DNA of 64,000 bases, from the NCBI GenBank assembly GCA_951406725.2, contig OX597814.1:57102001-57166000 (forward strand), written 5' to 3'. Of the stretch, positions 1-61,072 are shown in pieces; position 1 is the first letter of the stretch, and the number at the start of each line of letters is the position of its first letter. The notes under the pieces are model-generated. The model made no database searches, was not told the origin of the DNA, and saw only the letters and a list, made by a program, of their open reading frames with translations. The position numbers were made by a program, and so were the translations under genes. Origin of the DNA: Octopus vulgaris. Its lineage: Eukaryota.

Positions 1-1935
1 TTTCCTGGCATAGGAAGCAAAATTGATGCTGGAAGAGTTCTCAGAGTACCAAGGATCATCTGGTCATCGATAAATCCGTTTTGAAGCATTGTAAAGAACA
101 TCATACAAACATGTCTATGGCTTGGATTGACTTTAAGAAGGTATATGATATGGTGCCTCATTCTTGGATCCTTGAATGCCTACAGATGTTTGGTGTTGCT
201 GACAACATCACAAATTTTCTGATATATAGCACGAAAGAGTGGAAAACCAAATTGTACTCAAGTAATGTATTCCTTGGAGAAGTTAATAGTAAAAGGAGAA
301 TCTTCCAAGGTGACTCGTTTTCTCCGTTACTATTTGTAATTTCACTATTACCCATAACAATGACACTTGGGAAAGTTAAGATTCGTTACCGATGTGGAAA
401 GAAAGTCTCATCAGTGAACCATCTTCTGTTTATGGATGACCTGAAATTATTTGGAAAATCTGAGAAATCTGATAGATTCCTTAAACAAAATAGTCCAGAA
501 GTGTGGTATGGAATTTCGGATTACCAAATGCTCAGTACTTAATATGAAAAGAAGGAAGAAAGCATTCTGCAGAGGATTACAGTTACCATCAAGAGAGATC
601 ATGGGTGAACCCGACGGTAGTGGGTAAAGATATTTAGGGATTTTGGAGCTGGATGACATTCTACACAAAGAAATGAAAGCCAACGTCAGCGAGGCGTATC
701 AAAAAGGGTGAAGATGGTGTTGAAATCCAACCTGAAAGCCAAAACTTTGATTACCGCAATGATTACCTGGGTAGTTGGGGTGGTCAGATATAGTGAGTCC
801 ATCCTCAAATGGATTAAGGAAGAAATATCAACATTGGAAAGTTGATGACGATGCATGGGGCGCTACACCCTAAAGCAAACGTAAACAGACGGTATATGAA
901 AAGAAAGAACGGTGGCAGAGGACTAATTAGTATTGTATAAGGAGTGAAAAAAGAACGCTTGCCCAGTATTTGATAAATATTGATGAAGGCTTACTGCAAT
1001 ATACCGTGAAAGATATGGGTGTAAATGCAGATGAAATGGTGGATAAGGAAGAGTTTAATCAAAGAGCTGAGGAGAAGAGAAAAGAAGACCTTCTTGAAAT
1101 GTAAATGCATGGACAGTTTGAAAGGAATACACAGGACGTTGAGGATAATACAACATCGTGGGTATGGCTTGAGCGAGGTGATTTGAAGCGTATCATCGAA
1201 AACCTAATCATTGCTTCAGAAGATCAGGCACCCGCTACCAATTCAGGGAAGTATAACATCTATAAAACTTCTAACACCCAGAAATGCAGACTGTGGAAAG
1301 AGTGTGAAAAATGTGACCCACTTGGTAAGTGGATGTGAGAGCCTTGCACAAAAAGAATACAAGCGCCGCTACAATAAAATGTGGGTGTATCTTCATTGGC
1401 TCTTATGTCGTAAATATCAATATGAAGTAACAGAGAACTGGTAGGAGCGTGTACCAAGTAAAGATATGCAGGAGGATTGAAAAGTAATGATACTCTGGGA
1501 CTATGATTTCCAGGCGGATCGTATAATGGAACACCATCGGCCGGATATTATTATATTGAGTAAGAGAGACAAACACTGTCAGATCATTGATGTAGCCATA
1601 CCTGATGACATGAATGTTGTGAGTAAGGAGGTTGAAAAAAATCACCAAGTACTCCGAATTGAAAGTGGAAATGGCAAGACTGTATGGAATGCGAGAAGGT
1701 AATGTAAAAGTGATACCAGTGGTGATCAGTGCGAGCGTTGGGCTTAATCCCTTTGAAACTTCAAGACTTCTTAAGGCAACTGGAAATCCCATGCAAGATT
1801 AATGTCTTACAAACGGCAGCATTATTGGGTATAGCGCAAATCTTAAGGAAAGTATTATCTGTCTGATTTCCTTGTAACTTGACAGATGACTAAAGATACC
1901 GGTGCATTTTTACCTACACTGTATTGCGAAGGACT
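1..1935 (+). mobile_element. Decayed R4/Dong-clade non-LTR retrotransposon (RT, CCHC, restriction-like endonuclease); 5' part outside window
   Basis: RT motifs MAWIDFKKVYDMVPHSWI, IFQGDSFSPLLF, NHLLFMDDLKLF (ORF 81-542). Then MHGQFER..WVWL, CRL..HLVSGC..LAQKEYKRR and ILWDYDFQADRIMEHHRPDIII..IIDVAIP (RLE). Many frameshifts and stops. Ends in (TAC)n(TAA)n. Confidence 0.85.
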
Positions 1936-4620: not shown

Positions 4621-5182
4621 TTTACAATAATAATAAATGCCCTGATGTAGTGCCAGGCAGTGTTTCTTATTGCTTCTGATATTAACTGACTGGATGTGTT
4701 ATCATGTACATTGTTTTGTCTTGGTATAGAAGATAGGCTCCAGCAAATATTCTGCTCATTACCACAGATTTACTTGTCAGTTCTTTGACCATAACCAGTT
4801 GTCCCTTGGTGGTTGACGATATGTGCATCTCTGATCACGAGCAGAAGTAGTGGGGAGTTTCATACCCATGTGTTGAGAGGAATTTTGGGAGGTTTCGACA
4901 ATTCACCTTTGGAAACATGAGTGTTTCGTTCAATCCTTAAACAATCCTTATTCAGGGACCTTTTAAGCAGGATGGACTACTCGGTCTGAAGAAAATTCTA
5001 ACTGGGCCCCACTTACAAGGTCATGCGCTGTTTATATTGATATGAGATCACCATGTCATACACATGGTTGTGATGCATCTGCCTGGTATACATTTATTAG
5101 AGGGGTAGCCATGATGGGTATACTGGACTTCCTATATGTGTACCCAAGTGTCACTTTGATGGCATGCACTGCTCTCTCACTC

Positions 5183-5235
<53 letters not shown>

Positions 5236-5238
<3 letters not shown>

Positions 5239-6245
5239 CGAAAAAAGCGCACGAGCAATTGGCTGATAGGTGGGAGGAGAAACCTCTGCACGGCAAATAT
5301 GTGGCCTGCAGCAAACAAGCTGATGTTGACCAGAAGCAAACCCATCAGTGGCTACGGAGCTCAGGGCTAAAAGCAGAGAGCGAAGGTTTCATCCTGGCTG
5401 CTCAAGATCAAAGCCTATTAACCCGGAACTACCAGGCCAATGTGATGAAAAATGGAGCAGACCCAAAATGCCGATTCTGCAACGACATGATTGAAACAGT
5501 GGACCACCTAATCTCTGGATGTAAAGTCTTAGCACCAGTGGAGTATAAATTAAGACATGACAGAGTTGGCCAATATATACACTGGCTAATAAGTCGGCAT
5601 TACAATATCAAAACTGCCGACAAGTGGTATAATCACCACTCTGAAGCTGTAACTGAAGGAGAAAATGTAACGATTCTGTGGGACTTTCCAGTACATACAG
5701 ACCAATAAACCAGTACATACAGCCAATAAACCAGATATTGTTGTAAAAGACCAAAACAATAAAGTTTGCTTATTGATCGACATGAGCACCCCCCGTGATC
5801 ATAATATCTCAGCGAAAGAGTTTGACAAGCTCAGAAAATATAAAGACCTACTCATTGAAATTGAGAAAATGTGGCATCTCAATGCGGTTACAATACCAGT
5901 GATCGTAGGAGCACTAGGAATGATCAAGAAGGGAACCGAAAATTATATGAGAATGATCCCTGGCTTACCATCCCTGCAAGAAGTGCAAAAGATTGTCTTA
6001 ACTGGTACATCACACGTATTGAGAAGAGCATTCTTAACTGGTACATCACACGTATTGAGAAGAGCATTATCGATGTGAAAACTATTACTACCCATGTATT
6101 TTAATTCAACTTAAAAAAAAAATGAACGAACTATTGAGTTTAGTTTAATGGCCTACCAATGTATACTATGAGTTTCTTTGCCCTAGGAGTCGGGAAGACA
6201 CTCGGCAAGAAATGGAAGTAAATTTGAAAGAAGGAAAAAAAAATG
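5236..6245 (+). mobile_element. 5'-truncated R4/Dong-type element in (TAA)n, with two small internal tandem duplications
   Basis: WEEKPLHGKY..HQWLRSSGLKAESEGFILAAQDQSLLTRNY..CRFC..HLISGC..ILWDFPVHTD, RLE region to HVLRRALSM. A 36-nt duplication near 5998-6069 and an ~21-nt duplication near 5688-5730. Confidence 0.85.
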
Positions 6246-21341: not shown

Positions 21342-21407
<66 letters not shown>

Positions 21408-21411
<4 letters not shown>

Positions 21412-23364
21412 GTTATCGCCATACTAATATGGCATTCTTATAAAAATAAGAAAAAAGCTGTCCGCTTATTAGCTCCATGAGGCCATCGCCTTAAGTTAGC
21501 TATTTGATACACAAACTGTATCCATATAACCTTCGAACAAGGTTAATATTTTAATATTTCTATTATTGAAAACAAGTGGATGTATTCCACCGAAACTAGG
21601 TAAATAAAACCATCGAACAGAGATTGTCGGAAGCGACACCTACTGGCTGGCTACGCTGCATTGAAAAGGGGCAATACTCCGAAACGCGTCTGTAGCTGCC
21701 GGTCAAGTAGTGTGGAGCGACTGACCTCCCTTGTTCGAAGGTTATATGGATACAGTTTGTGTATCAAATAGCTAACTTAAGGCGATGGCCTCATGGAGCT
21801 AATAAGCGGACAGCTTTTTTCTTATTTTTATAAGAATGCCATATTAGTATGGCGATAACTATTATTTTCCGGGAACGCTGCCGCTGTTCTCTTTTAGAGA
21901 GACTTAGTTATTTTAATATTTCTATTATTGAAAACAAGTGGATGTATTCCACCGAAACTAGGTAAATAAAACCATCGAACAGAGATTGTCGGAAGCGACA
22001 CCTACTGGCTGGCTACGCTGCATTGAAAAGGGGCAATACTCCGAAACGCGTCTGTAGCTGCCGGTCAAGTAGTGTGGAGCGACTGACCTCCCTTGTTCGA
22101 AGGTTATATGGATACAGTTTGTGTATCAAATAGCTAACTTAAGGCGATGGCCTCATGGAGCTAATAAGCGGACAGCTTTTTTCTTATTTTTATAAGAATG
22201 CCATATTAGTATGGCGATAACTATTATTTTCCGGGAACGCTGCCGCTGTTCTCTTTTAGAGAGACTTAGTTATTTTAATATTTCTATTATTGAAAACAAG
22301 TGGATGTATTCCACCGAAACTAGGTAAATAAAACCATCGAACAGAGATTGTCGGAAGCGACACCTACTGGCTGGCTACGCTGCATTGAAAAGGGGCAATA
22401 CTCCGAAACGCGTCTGTAGCTGCCGGTCAAGTAGTGTGGAGCGACTGACCTCCCTTGTTCGAAGGTTATATGGATACAGTTTGTGTATCAAATAGCTAAC
22501 TTAAGGCGATGGCCTCATGGAGCTAATAAGCGGACAGCTTTTTTCTTATTTTTATAAGAATGCCATATTAGTATGGCGATAACTATTATTTTCCGGGAAC
22601 GCTGCCGCTGTTCTCTTTTAGAGAGACTTAGTTATTTTAATATTTCTATTATTGAAAACAAGTGGATGTATTCCACCGAAACTAGGTAAATAAAACCATC
22701 GAACAGAGATTGTCGGAAGCGACACCTACTGGCTGGCTACGCTGCATTGAAAAGGGGCAATACTCCGAAACGCGTCTGTAGCTGCCGGTCAAGTAGTGTG
22801 GAGCGACTGACCTCCCTTGTTCGAAGGTTATATGGATACAGTTTGTGTATCAAATAGCTAACTTAAGGCGATGGCCTCATGGAGCTAATAAGCGGACAGC
22901 TTTTTTCTTATTTTTATAAGAATGCCATATTAGTATGGCGATAACTATTATTTTCCGGGAACGCTACCGCTGTTCTCTTTTAGAGAGACTTAGTTATTTT
23001 AATATTTCTATTATTGAAAACAAGTGGATGTATTCCACCGAAACTAGGTAAATAAAACCATCGAACAGAGATTGTCGGAAGCGACACCTACTGGCTGGCT
23101 ACGCTGCATTGAAAAGGGGCAATACTCCGAAACGCGTCTGTAGCTGCCGGTCAAGTAGTGTGGAGCGACTGACCTCCCTTGTTCGAAGGTTATATGGATA
23201 CAGTTTGTGTATCAAATAGCTAACTTAAGGCGATGGCCTCATGGAGCTAATAAGCGGACAGCTTTTTTCTTATTTTTATAAGAATGCCATATTAGTATGG
23301 CGATAACTATTATTTTCCGGGAACGCTGCCGCTGTTCTCTTTTAGAGAGACTTAGTTATTTTAA

Positions 23365-23369
<5 letters not shown>
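21408..23369 (+). mobile_element. Tandem array of five 362-bp hammerhead-containing units (retrozyme-like), preceded by a 135-bp inverted partial unit, inserted in (TA)n
   Basis: Ribozyme cores start at 21661, 22023, 22385, 22747 and 23109 (exact 362 period). Units near-identical; one substitution seen near 22966. 21408-21542 is the reverse complement of the unit's 3' half. Confidence 0.9.
21640..21710 (+). ncRNA. Type I hammerhead ribozyme, U3-A8 core variant (copies at 22002-22072, 22364-22434, 22726-22796, 23088-23158)
   Basis: GCUGCA-UUGAAAA-GGGG(CAAUA)CUCC-GAAAC(GC)GUC^UGUAGC. Helix I extends past a UAC/U internal loop (UGGCUGGC/GCCGGUCA, CUAC/GUAG). Palindromic helix III (ACGCGU). Predicted cleavage after 21690. 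Confidence 0.85.
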
Positions 23370-23433
<64 letters not shown>

Positions 23434-23695: not shown

Positions 23696-24349
23696 CAAAA
23701 CTGGGAGGAAGGGAAAGTGGGACGAAACGACGAATCGAATCGACCCTGACGCGAACGCGCTGTCAGACAATAATGTAATAAATAAAATATATGCATGCAT
23801 ACAAACATATACGTACGTACCTACATCTACATGTATATATACATGCATATATAAATATATATACGTGAGTACAGGATACTGCAACTAGACGTAGAACTCA
23901 ACGAAAAACGAAAACGGACAAGCCATAGTCCAGATGGAGCTGTGCACATACCGTTTAAGCACGGCTTTTACATTAGATTATCTGCTAATTAGCTAGCATT
24001 AAGTATCTATATGAAGTTTGGCTGTATGTAATATCTCTTTTCTCGAACAGCCGCTTCTACTGAGTACTGCTGTTGGTTTATTTCTTATACATAAAGGACT
24101 ATAGCTTCAACTGCGTACTGCTTTTTGATTCACCGTAAGGTTTGTTGTTATTATTATTACTGTTTATCTATTGTTATCACATTTGTTGGTTCCTCGTAAG
24201 GGAAAGGTTGTTGTGTTGCATTTGTTAAATAATTGTAAACTGTAACCCTACCCCTTTGGGAGAAGGAGCTTTGGTTATTGTTTAAAAATTGAATTGTGTC
24301 CCTGTTTGCGGAAATTGGCAATATTTTCACCGTTTATACGTAAGCATTT

Positions 24350-24870
24350 TTGTTAGAATGCCTTCGATAGAAGAAAGTCCAAAAATGAATTTCGCTGCAG
24401 CCGTCGGCGAGCGCGAACTCATTAAAACTAAAATGGAAGAAATACAAACCTATTTTGGATTGATCACCGACAAAGACAATGAATCTAGGAAAACGCCACC
24501 AAACGAAATAAAAAATTAAATTAAAGAAAAGACTATTGTCTATAAAGTATACAATGTAGAGAAAAAAATTGAACACCTGGAGGAGAGTACCATCGAAAAG
24601 TGTCTTGGTGCGACTATGAAAGATATCTAACCCGAGGCGGTAAATTCGCCACAATAGAAGCAAGGTTCGAGTCAACGGAGCGTGCAAGGGAGTACTCGAC
24701 TCGAACCTTGCAAAATGGAAATATTTTATTTTTACCTTTATATCTGGGACGTAAGACGTCCCGGATAAAAATTTAAAATGTCCCCCCAGAAGTAGAGGTA
24801 GGCTGGATTGTAGCCACACTGCTATACAAGAGGGAGGACAAGATACAATTGATCGAAATTGCAAGAAACG
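24350..24870 (+). mobile_element. Decayed Tx1/L1-like ORF1 fragment
   Basis: FATIEARFESTERAREYSTRTLQNGNILFLPLYLGRKTSRIKI.NVPPEVEVGWIVATLL resembles the zinc-knuckle ORF1 at 63600-64000 (LGRCTFREDIPPDVNVACLMAAILL). Confidence 0.55.
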
Positions 24871-25724: not shown

Positions 25725-26132
25725 TATAAATATGTAATTTACATCTAATATAGGATAGAATCTTTCGAAAAAAATTCTATCGATGGTCAGCAAATTAAAA
25801 AATACCTTTAAGGGTATTTTTTAATATACTGGTTATTGTTCATGTTTGAATGGACTATATATATATATATATATATATATATTAATTGTTATCGCCATAT
25901 TAATATGGCATTCTTATAGATATAAGAATAATCGCTGCCGCTGGTCAGCTCCATGAGGCCACCGCCATCAAGATAGCTATTGATACACGATCTGTATCCA
26001 TTATAACCTTCGAACAAGGTTGTTTTATAGAGACTTAGTAATTTTAATATTTCTATTATTGAAAACAAGTGGATGTATTCCACTGAAACTAGGTAAATAG
26101 AAACCTTCGAACAGAGACGTCAGTGGCGACAC

Positions 26133-26204
26133 CTGCGGGTCTGACTGCGCCACATTGACAAGGGGCAATACCCCGAAACGCGTCTGTAGCTGTCGAACTG
26201 GCAG
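26133..26204 (+). ncRNA. Type I hammerhead ribozyme (UUGACAA core), one C-A mismatch in proximal helix I
   Basis: GCCACA-UUGACAA-GGGG(CAAUA)CCCC-GAAAC(GC)GUC^UGUAGC. Confidence 0.75.
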
Positions 26205-26496
26205 TGTGAAGCGGCTGACCTCCCTTGTTCGAAGGTTATAATGGATACAGATCGTGTATCAATAGCTATCTTGATGGCGGTGGCCTCATGGAGCTGACCA
26301 GCGGCAGCGATTATTCTTATATCTATAAGAATGCCATATTAATATGGCGATAACAATTAATTTCCAGTAAACGCTGCCGTAATCCCTTTTATAGAGACTT
26401 AGTAATTTTAATATTTCTATTATTGAAAACAAGTGGATGTATTCCACTGAAACTAGGTAAATAGAAACCTTCGAACAGAGAATTCAGTGGCGACAC

Positions 26497-26568
26497 CTGC
26501 GGGTCTGACTGCGCTACATTGACAAGGGGCAATACCCCGAAACGCGTCTGTAGCTGTCGGACTGGCAG
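26497..26568 (+). ncRNA. Type I hammerhead ribozyme (UUGACAA core), fully paired proximal helices
   Basis: GCUACA-UUGACAA-GGGG(CAAUA)CCCC-GAAAC(GC)GUC^UGUAGC. Distal helix I GUCUGAC/GUCGGAC and CUGC/GCAG. Confidence 0.85.
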
Positions 26569-26774
26569 TGTGAAGCGGCTGACCTCCCTTGTTCGAAGAT
26601 TATAATGGATACAGATCGTGTATCAATAGCTATCTTGATGGCGGTGGCCTCATGGAGCTGACCAGCGGCAGCGATTATTCTTATATCTATAAGAATGCCA
26701 TATTAATATGGCGATAACAATTAATTTCCATAAACGCTGCCGTAATCTCTTTTATATAGACTTAGTAATTTTAA

Positions 26775-26831
<57 letters not shown>

Positions 26832-27084
26832 AATCCAAACATGAACATACACACACATACACACACATCTTTATGCTTTCGTGTTTGTGCTTCTCCTCCC
26901 CATCACCGCTTGACAACCGGTGTTAGTGTGTTTACGTCTCCGTAACTTGCGACTCGACAAGGGAGACTGATAAAATAAGTACTAAGCTTGAAGAATAAAA
27001 TCGTGGGGCCGATCTGCTCGACTGAGACTCTTCAAGGCGGTGCTCCAGCATGGACGCAGTTAAATGACTGAAACAAGCAAAAGA

Positions 27085-59225: not shown

Positions 59226-59273
<48 letters not shown>

Positions 59274-59559
59274 AAGAGTGAAAAAACTACAGAAGGCTTA
59301 AATGTTAAAAAATATATATATTTGCGTCAATATGTCTAAAGAATTTTTTTTTTTTTTTCTCTTATAATGACATAATTTAAAAGAAAGACCGGTTTCGCGT
59401 GTAGCTTATACATTTTACCGTCAATGACAATACATTTTACCGTCAAAAATCCGGAATTGCTATGGGTACAAGGGCAGCACCAGTCATTGCGAACTTAACA
59501 ATGGGATACATGGAAATAATCATTTACCAGGAATCTTTATCAATCTTTGGAAACCCCTC

Positions 59560-60696
59560 TCTCAATACATAAAAGAGAATTGGAAACGATTCTTAGACGA
59601 TTGTTTTATTCTCTGGAATGAAAACACAGATAAACTCCTAAAATTTAAAAACCTATTGAACAGCATAAACCCAAATATACAGTTCACAATGGAATACAAC
59701 CAAAAGGAATTCCCGTTCTTGGATATACTAATTAAAAAAATTAACCTTAAAATAGAAACAGACATTTTTTACAAAGCCACAGACGCCAAACAATACCTTC
59801 TTTTTAATTCATGCCACCCAAGACACACTAAAACAAACATCCCCTTCAACCTTGCAAGAAGGATATGCACAATAGTGTCAGAACAAAATACCAGGAACTT
59901 TAGACTGCAAGAACTCAAAAACACCCTAATTGACAGACATTGCTCAGCTCAACTCATAGAGGATGGGATCAGACGTGCAACAGAAATCAACATAGAAACT
60001 TTAAGAAAAGTTCAACACAACAACACACCTTCCCCGAAAATACTACCTTACATATCTACATACAACCCCAGAAACAAAGAAGCCTTCACCATCATCACCC
60101 AGAATTTACCAATACTTCATAAAGACCCCAAATTAAAGGAAATTCTAAACATACACCAAATCATTAAAAGCTACAAACAGCCTAAATCACTTAAAAAGAT
60201 TCTCACAAAGGCAAAATTGTCTTCTGAAATTACGGATGCAAAAGTAAAAAAATGTGGTAGATCGAACTGTGCAACATGTCCTAACCTGCTAGAAGGATCA
60301 GAATTCCTCTTTAAAGAGGGACAGAAATTCAAGATCAAATCTAACTTTACTTGTGCCTCTGAAAACATAATTTATGTCATAAAATGCTCGGGCTGCCACC
60401 AAGACTACGTGGGTTCCACGGGACTATCACTCAGACGTAGATGCACACTGCATCGACAACAGATTGCATTCCCAGAATATAGAATGATACCTTTTAGTGA
60501 GCACATTGAGAAATGCGCAAAGCAACTACTACCACAATTTTTAATCTTTCCATTTTACCAATGTGCTTTCGGATCATCAACACAAATTAGACTAAACAAG
60601 GAAACATTCTTCATTGAAAAGTACAAGCCCAGACTCAACCATCCGAACATACTGATACAGAGAAATTCACACCAAGGGAAAGGAAAAAGTTTTTAA
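59560..60696 (+). CDS. Open RT thumb, Cys linker and GIY-YIG endonuclease region of the Penelope element (truncated, no true start)
   Basis: FLDD, FPFLDI, TDIFYKATD..SCHPRHTK, CGRSNCATC linker, NIIYVIKCSGCHQDYVGSTG..R..H, E..FI..YKPRLN. Confidence 0.85.
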   Translation, partial: SQYIKENWKRFLDDCFILWNENTDKLLKFKNLLNSINPNIQFTMEYNQKEFPFLDILIKKINLKIETDIFYKATDAKQYLLFNSCHPRHTKTNIPFNLARRICTIVSEQNTRNFRLQELKNTLIDRHCSAQLIEDGIRRATEINIETLRKVQHNNTPSPKILPYISTYNPRNKEAFTIITQNLPILHKDPKLKEILNIHQIIKSYKQPKSLKKILTKAKLSSEITDAKVKKCGRSNCATCPNLLEGSEFLFKEGQKFKIKSNFTCASENIIYVIKCSGCHQDYVGSTGLSLRRRCTLHRQQIAFPEYRMIPFSEHIEKCAKQLLPQFLIFPFYQCAFGSSTQIRLNKETFFIEKYKPRLNHPNILIQRNSHQGKGKSF

Positions 60697-60805
60697 GCGA
60701 TTATCTCCCTTACACCGGAAGAAATCACTCACTACCTTCCCTTATTTAGAACTCTCCTGAACATAAACATAACGATAACTCTATTCAACATAAACATAAC
60801 GTCAC

Positions 60806-60844
60806 AAGAAATTTGAAAAGCTACACGCGAAACCGGTCTTTCTT
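60806..60844 (+). ncRNA. Minimal type I hammerhead in the Penelope 3' repeat, U3-A8 core
   Basis: AAGAAA(U)-UUGAAAA-GC(UACAC)GC-GAAAC(CG)GUC^UUUCUU, palindromic helix III ACCGGU. Confidence 0.65.
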
Positions 60845-61016
60845 TTAAATTATGTCATTAAAAGAGAAAAAAAATTTTTTTTTAAATTTTCTAATATTCT
60901 TCAGACATATTGACGCAAATATATATATTTTTTAACATTTAAGCCTTCTGTAGTTTTTTCACTCTTTACTATTTTCTATATATTCACCCACGTGCTTTCA
61001 CAAACCAACTTTCTTA

Positions 61017-61072
<56 letters not shown>

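What the first reader, a model, noticed from the sequence alone, without database searches (positions are those of the whole stretch)
25882..26780. Second subfamily gives covariation support for the ribozyme fold
Seen: relative to array 1, changes in the ribozyme preserve pairing. Helix II G-U becomes G-C, helix I G-U becomes A-U, GGC/GCC becomes GAC/GUC, and CUAC/GUAG becomes CUGC/GCAG. The only core change is at the free position N7 (A to C). Other hairpins are also retained (GATAC..GTATC, GCCATA..TATGGC), as is a long-range pairing AACC(T/A)TCGAACA / TGTTCGAAGGTT bracketing the ribozyme. Inference: RNA structure is under selection in two independently inserted subfamilies about 2.5 kb apart.
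Basis: partly seen in the sequence, partly recalled or inferred. Interest (0 to 1): 0.7.

Follow-up and report, generated by a model that had tools for sequence, protein, structure and literature searches.

The report
Retrozyme subfamilies keep their hammerhead fold
This is one copy of a genome-wide family of 364-base protein-free jumping repeats whose successive subfamilies changed both partners of many base pairs while keeping a predicted self-cutting RNA fold, a known kind of element (a retrozyme) that is likely pasted in by Penelope-type enzymes.

Summary
Array 2 (25881-26783) and array 1 (21406-23373) are two subfamilies (86% identical) of a 362-364-bp non-coding repeat with a type I hammerhead (U3-A8 core variant); 1,265 exact core matches lie in the genome. 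Between these two arrays only two pairs change on both sides, and the genomic copies of array 2 carry three pair-breaking private changes. Adding five sister subfamilies and one distant family from the same genome makes the covariation clear: 8-10 double changes against 1.5-2.6 expected, and 9 of 16 ribozyme pairs change on both sides, including core pair 3-8 (C-G/U-A) and the palindromic helix III loop. Selection therefore acts on the RNA that transposes, not on the inserted copies. Insertions sit in TA repeats with two outward arms, one ending at site A and one at site B (45 of 45 classifiable), like Neptune-type Penelope elements here (12 of 14). It is a new member of the known non-LTR retrozymes. 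Cleavage and circles are untested. This scan found the same family and footprint before on other DNA of this genome.

The parts
25881..26019 (-). Inverted arm of array 2: unit positions 168-306; its outer end is fixed end B, abutting (TA)n
   Evidence: (99.3% to the unit)
26023..26783 (+). Direct arm of array 2 (subfamily S2): 34-bp partial unit plus two 364-bp units; outer end is fixed end A, abutting (TA)n
26133..26205 (+). Type I hammerhead, copy 1 (core 26155-26184, predicted cut after 26184); two pair-breaking private changes at 26151 and 26196
26497..26569 (+). Type I hammerhead, copy 2 (core 26519-26548, U3-A8, N7=C, 4-bp helix II, palindromic minimal helix III, extended helix I; predicted cut after 26548)
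26102..26237 (+). Long-range bracket helix closing the 140-nt ribozyme rod in copy 1 (copy 2: 26466-26601)
   Evidence: double change in subfamily S1b
26607..26624 (+). GAUAC hairpin (copy 1: 26243-26260); U-A becomes C-G in subfamilies S3, O and family X
26697..26712 (+). GCCAUA hairpin just before end B (copy 1: 26333-26348); only 4 bp in O, one double change in X
26726..26783 (+). 58-nt 'tail' between end B and end A; inferred to lie between two reverse-transcription start sites
   Evidence: analogy with PMC11167929
26414..26467 (+). Second hammerhead-like motif across the unit junction; complete only in S2, broken in S1b, O and X; likely not functional
21406..23373 (+). Array 1 (subfamily S1): inverted arm 21406-21542 ending at B, then five 362-bp units ending at A
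59256..61025 (+). 5'-truncated Neptune-like Penelope element (ORF 59428-60696; minimal U3-A8 hammerhead near 60807-60844; inverted arm 59256-59407; TA flanks): example of the likely helper class

Best explanation
This is a non-LTR retrozyme: a 364-base non-coding repeat whose subfamilies keep one hammerhead fold through paired base changes, which is predicted to cut its RNA (likely as a dimer) into unit-length, likely circular molecules that a Penelope-type enzyme likely copies into TA repeats from both cut DNA strands. Shown: repeat family, fold, covariation, fixed ends A and B, one A and one B end per two-armed insertion, shared rare variants between arms, same geometry in local Neptune-like elements. 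Inferred: read-through or own transcription of tandem arrays; self-cleavage after C17 helped by pairing of the palindromic helix III between neighbouring units; circularisation; capture by a Neptune-like RT/GIY-YIG protein that nicks both strands of a TA tract and starts one cDNA at A and the other at B; arms longer than one unit by running round the circle; head-to-head joining. Only RNAs that keep the fold found new subfamilies, which is what the covariation records.
For: Covariation: 8, 10 and 9 double changes with the structure taken from S1, S2 or Oc alone, against null means 1.48, 2.19, 2.57 (P 0.0002-0.0008, 5,000 partner permutations; ribozyme only 4, 5, 4 vs 0.47-0.63). 27 natural copies: 91% of cells paired, 40 cells with double change vs 18.9 shuffled, slid controls 30-42% paired. 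15 copies with family X: 9 of 16 pairs change on both sides, covariation score 0.47 vs 0.22 shuffled and at most 0.10 slid; core pair 3-8 is U-A in 10 and C-G in 5; loop 3 is UA in 9 and GC in 6, always self-complementary. Family X has C3-G8 in 25 of 27 cores. Circular unit folds at z -6.4 to -8.7 (40 shuffles each). Dispersal: 1,265, 1,880 and 204 pattern matches vs controls 0, 51, 0. Geometry: of 80 insertions 45 A+B, 0 A+A, 0 B+B, 11 two-armed with one eroded end, 24 one-armed; either arm can be the longer (28 vs 21). Rare variants shared by both arms: 26 of 99 and 23 of 156, vs 87 of 4,561 and 23 of 3,571 between insertions. Neptune-like PLEs: RT and GIY-YIG hits, U3-A8 minimal hammerheads, TA flanks, 12 of 14 two-armed copies A+B with a 48-nt tail. 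Literature: two internal RT start sites bounding the tail and cleavage/extension of both strands (PMC11167929); dimeric activity of weak palindromic helix III and circles (PMC7229834).
Against: No cleavage, circle or transcript shown; runs holding the sequence are only guessed to be RNA and are contigs. Kept-vs-broken contrast between subfamily changes and private changes is significant with one structure only (Fisher P 0.011, 0.19, 0.18); paired columns are not less variable than unpaired (45 of 189 vs 48 of 158, P 0.18); many subfamily states break the column-wise pairing (19-29), partly register shifts that I did not separate. Subfamilies are few and related, so P values overstate independence. 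No helper with a homologous pseudo-LTR was found: best match 69% over 52 nt between family X and a Neptune pLTR. Arm junctions are not enriched at the cut site (4 of 105, P 0.70). In PMC11167929 hammerhead cleavage was not needed for insertion in vitro, and 8 of 9 Xenopus retrozyme dimers did not cleave (bioRxiv 10.64898/2026.07.22.740005).
Confidence: 0.8

Rival explanations
1. Same element and helper, but the template is a linear, uncleaved multimeric transcript; the fold is selected for protein binding, stability or RT start-site display, and cleavage and circles play little part.
For: PMC11167929: ribozyme mutants did not affect insertion in vitro. Junctions not enriched at the cut site. 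Arms cross the cut site many times (five units in array 1).
Against: Catalytic core positions are invariant across families only 63-68% identical, and pair 3-8 changes on both sides, which argues for selected catalysis; units within an S1 arm differ by 0.1% vs 0.5% between loci, as expected for repeated copying of one unit (but also for a homogeneous source array).
Confidence: 0.3
2. The units are pseudo-LTR debris of an autonomous Penelope element not yet found; selection on the fold acted in that element.
For: Geometry, target and U3-A8 core match local PLEs; the genome search scores only the best candidates, so a rare parent could be missed.
Against: Units run head-to-tail through end A with no ORF in any of the fetched retrozyme loci checked for ORFs and up to 5.5 units per arm; PLE hammerheads here are minimal with a different helix III palindrome; the unit junction is conserved from X to S1.
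Confidence: 0.1
3. An ordinary minisatellite spread by DNA-level recombination; the paired changes are chance or hairpin-templated repair.
For: Hairpin-templated correction can make double changes without selection (own knowledge); paired columns vary as often as unpaired ones.
Against: Fixed ends in TA tracts on many contigs; pair 3-8 and loop 3 covary although neither is an ordinary DNA hairpin stem.
Confidence: 0.03

Closest known systems
Metazoan non-LTR retrozymes (PMC7229834; mussel 350-390 bp, axolotl 330/350 bp; text parts 2-3 of 6 and passages read)
   Same: Non-coding tandem unit of 150-450 bp, GC under 50%, one type I hammerhead per unit, self-paired predicted circle, weak palindromic helix III; family X has a U.U at the base of helix II like axolotl HHR_Amex2.
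   Different: U3-A8 core in the young subfamilies; inverted two-armed insertions with fixed ends ('inverted' has 0 occurrences in that paper's main text); expression and circles not shown here.
Retrozymes as non-autonomous PLE derivatives (bioRxiv 10.64898/2026.07.22.740005; parts 1-3 of 5 read, supplements not seen)
   Same: Co-occurrence with Neptune-type PLEs; proposed mobilisation by PLE enzymes.
   Different: There the link rests on pLTR homology and co-distribution; here homology is marginal and the link rests on the insertion footprint.
Penelope-like elements with pLTR hammerheads, inverted arm and tail (PMC4209133 parts 1-2 of 4; PMC8557442 passages; PMC11167929 parts 1-2 of 4)
   Same: U3-A8 variant (Schistosoma Cercyon), palindromic helix III, tandem plus inverted 5'-truncated copies, tail at one end, TA microsatellite targets.
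   Different: No ORF; canonical-size hammerhead with extended helix I rather than a minimal one; tail 58 nt rather than 30-40.
Natural U3-A8 hammerhead variants (PMC3088659, section 8 read)
   Same: C3-G8 to U3-A8 covariation seen in nature and reported active in vitro; U10.1-U11.1 mismatch also described.
   Different: Here both states occur in sister families of one retrozyme lineage in one genome.

Membership tests
Type I hammerhead ribozyme | Core (C/U)UGAN(G/A)A, GAAA, UH with 3-8 pairing | tested here: met
   U3-A8 accepted per PMC3088659 and PMC4209133. Rfam gave no hammerhead hit at gathering or E<=10
Type I hammerhead ribozyme | Helices I, II, III with covariation | tested here: met
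   helix III only 2 bp as monomer, 6 bp as predicted dimer
Type I hammerhead ribozyme | Self-cleavage after N17 | not testable with these tools
   needs in vitro transcription or stranded raw reads
Type I hammerhead ribozyme | Loop 1-loop 2 tertiary contact | not tested
   a 3-nt bulge in helix I and a 5-6-nt loop 2 are kept in all families but no 3D test was run
Non-LTR retrozyme | Short tandem non-coding unit with one type I hammerhead each | tested here: met
   (no ORF of 100 aa over the arrays)
Non-LTR retrozyme | Dispersed multi-copy family without LTR, PBS or PPT organisation | tested here: met
   no LTR arrangement in the loci examined; PBS/PPT not searched separately
Non-LTR retrozyme | Highly self-paired unit | tested here: met
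   z -6.4 to -8.7
Non-LTR retrozyme | Expressed as circular RNA | tested here: inconclusive
   contigs only, RNA status guessed, flank also covered
Penelope-like element (autonomous) | ORF with RT and GIY-YIG | tested here: not met
   present only in separate elements
PLE-mobilised non-autonomous element | Tandem plus inverted 5'-truncated arms, tail at one end, AT-rich target | tested here: met
   same in Neptune-like copies
PLE-mobilised non-autonomous element | Sequence homology to a helper's pLTR | tested here: inconclusive
   three PLE families compared, best 69% over 52 nt

The most novel reading that the evidence does not exclude
One genome holds a fossil series of a single retrozyme lineage that swapped its catalytic 3-8 pair and its intermolecular helix III palindrome while staying mobile, and every two-armed insertion records one circular RNA copied from two fixed start sites by a dimeric Penelope enzyme; this gives a ready-made natural mutagenesis set for testing what the ribozyme must do for transposition.
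Probability: 0.5. Interest if true: 0.55.

Novelty: new member of a known kind. Interest (0 to 1): 0.32.

Why it matters
The class, the U3-A8 variant and the PLE link are in print, so the specialist surprise is modest. Its value is evidential: covariation in the catalytic core and in the dimer-only palindrome argues that cleavage itself is selected in animal retrozymes, which in vitro work on PLEs has left open, and the strict A+B rule is a genomic test of two-site priming by Penelope enzymes. Searches for cephalopod + penelope + hammerhead gave 2 listed papers, neither on retrozymes by title or abstract, and retrozyme + inverted + microsatellite gave none describing this footprint in the 20 of 30 listed.

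Tried and rejected
Rfam: no hammerhead family hit in the window at gathering or E<=10 over 25800-26900. Expression: no RNA holder listed on record; contigs of guessed RNA runs cover the unit but also the flanking repeats, so no conclusion. A-to-I editing: no A>G excess on the RNA strand among single-locus changes (10 vs 14 T>C in young subfamilies, 21 vs 25 in O). Helper search: the three PLE families seen have no clear pLTR homology; among the first 100 of 1,880 loose core matches only 3 were not this family (L134-L136). Age order of X versus O: both about 5.5-6.8% from their majority, so the direction of the C3-G8/U3-A8 swap is not fixed. Identical inversion point in both window arrays (unit position 168) first looked like a fixed third site; it is a hotspot only (19 of 105 junctions in 160-186, P 0.0003). 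Second hammerhead-like motif: my descriptor missed it because the unit was cut one base too long; by direct inspection it is complete in S2 but broken in 9 of 9 S1b copies and in O and X majorities; not pursued. One search used a mis-registered structure string and is discarded; one search is the corrected count. Two A+A calls (L008, L021) came from loose gap costs and read A+B. R-scape was not available. Loci are a biased sample (best-scoring or first on contig C1); overlapping duplicate loci were dropped before counting.

Full report
What is there. The window holds two arrays of one repeat between TA tracts: array 1 (five 362-bp units) and array 2 (two 364-bp units), 86% identical, each preceded by an inverted partial copy. 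Each unit has a type I hammerhead with a U3-A8 core, a 4-bp helix II, a minimal palindromic helix III and a long helix I inside a 140-nt rod. No ORF of 100 aa overlaps the arrays, and Rfam has no hit.

Check of the observation. Two are double changes, two are wobble exchanges. The copies of array 2 are not intact: copy 1 breaks a helix I pair (26151) and a distal pair (26196), copy 2 breaks a bracket pair (26599). The G.U in helix II is a minority state of the array-1 lineage (19 of the first 100 listed cores). For S1 against S2 alone the two double changes exceed my permutation null (means 0.06-0.28, P 0.001-0.03), but this is thin and limited to the ribozyme.

The family. The genome (G000, 2.8 Gb; earlier notes call it octopus, which I did not test) has 1,265 exact matches to the core pattern and 1,880 to a looser one (control 51). 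A loose end led to an older group with a different helix III palindrome (204 matches), and one of those loci led to family X with a canonical C3-G8 core (25 of 27 cores). Clustering of 102 full units plus partial copies gave S1, S1b, S1c, S2, S3, Ot and Oc, 81-97% identical, with copies 0.3% (S1), 1.3% (S2) and 5-7% (S3, O) from their majority. X is 63-68% identical to them. Runs labelled as three other organisms also hold the sequence.

Covariation. With the structure folded from one subfamily only and tested on seven, double changes number 8, 10 and 9 against 1.5-2.6 when partners are permuted (P at most 0.0008). On 27 natural copies 91% of cells pair, against 30-42% for slid structures. With X included 9 of 16 ribozyme pairs change on both sides: four of six in proximal helix I, two in helix II, one distal, the tertiary pair 3-8, and the two loop-3 bases, which stay self-complementary. 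Pair 10.1-11.1 is seen as U.U, G.U, A-U and G-C. Outside the ribozyme, double changes occur in the bracket (S1b), the GAUAC hairpin and the hairpin after it. Against this: 19-29 subfamily states break column-wise pairs, the contrast with private changes is significant for one of three structures, paired columns are as variable as unpaired ones, and the lineages are few and related. The fair reading is that the ribozyme fold is clearly selected, the rest of the unit moderately, and only in lineages that transpose.

How it likely moves. Of 80 insertions of the young subfamilies, 56 have two outward-facing arms; in all 45 with both ends readable one arm ends at A (unit 364) and the other at B (unit 304-308); none is A+A or B+B. 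Either arm may be longer or multi-unit, which simple fold-back copying does not explain. Both arms share rare variants 14-23 times more often than arms of different insertions. Junctions cluster at the base of the ribozyme rod (19 of 105), where a reverse transcriptase would meet strong structure (inference). A Penelope-type element in this same window (59256-61025; RT end, CxxxCxxC linker, GIY-YIG; Neptune-like by the linker motif described in PMC8557442) and its relatives have TA flanks, a minimal U3-A8 hammerhead and A+B ends in 12 of 14 two-armed copies among 38 loci. PMC11167929 shows that a Penelope protein cuts and extends both strands and starts at two internal RNA sites that bound the tail. 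The simplest model is twin priming by such an enzyme on one retrozyme RNA, probably circular. The specific helper is not identified, and cleavage, circles and expression are untested.

Comparison and verdict. Unit size, hammerhead type and dispersal match non-LTR retrozymes (PMC7229834); PLE mobilisation has been proposed there and argued in bioRxiv 10.64898/2026.07.22.740005; U3-A8 is known (PMC3088659; PMC4209133); inverted arms and tails are known PLE marks (PMC8557442). I saw no supplementary files of these papers; they may list cephalopod families. Earlier notes of this scan, looked up after my own reading was formed, report the same 364-base family, the two-site footprint and variation at pair 3-8 at other places of this genome. 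The finding is a correct, useful piece of support for a new member of a known kind. Interest 0.32.

Noticed in passing
window 26414-26467 (and 26050-26103): Second hammerhead-like motif across the unit junction and end A; complete with an 8-bp helix I only in S2, broken in S1b, O and X. Relic, chance or a newly arising site.
   Followed up: partly
window 59256-61025: 5'-truncated Neptune-like Penelope element of a high-copy young family (27,331 candidates, copies 94-99% identical in protein, some open frames over 800 aa).
   Followed up: partly
L122, L123, L127, L128: Full-length copies of that PLE family have an upstream frame of up to about 490 aa overlapping the RT frame, i.e. two frames rather than one ORF; frameshift or intron not examined.
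   Followed up: no
L134:3477-3580 and L135:3260-3360: Solitary hammerheads with the same bulged helix I design but unrelated flanks; L135 has U3.G8, a possible intermediate of the 3-8 swap.
   Followed up: no
L146:1507-2236: Subfamily S1c copies mix S1 and S2 diagnostic bases in the ribozyme; recombinant or intermediate.
   Followed up: no
L018:1157-1501, L034:864-1170, L139:1464-1648: Single arms or units with many one-base deletions, mostly G or C; assembly error in hairpins or RT slippage.
   Followed up: no
window 27-542 and 5160-6078: Fragments of a non-LTR retrotransposon ORF (RT and a C-terminal zinc-knuckle/endonuclease-like part) with a (TAA)n insertion (family assignment recalled, not tested).
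   Followed up: no
window 23925-24870: Another repeat between the arrays, covered by contigs of four runs with joints that skip 300-410 bases.
   Followed up: no
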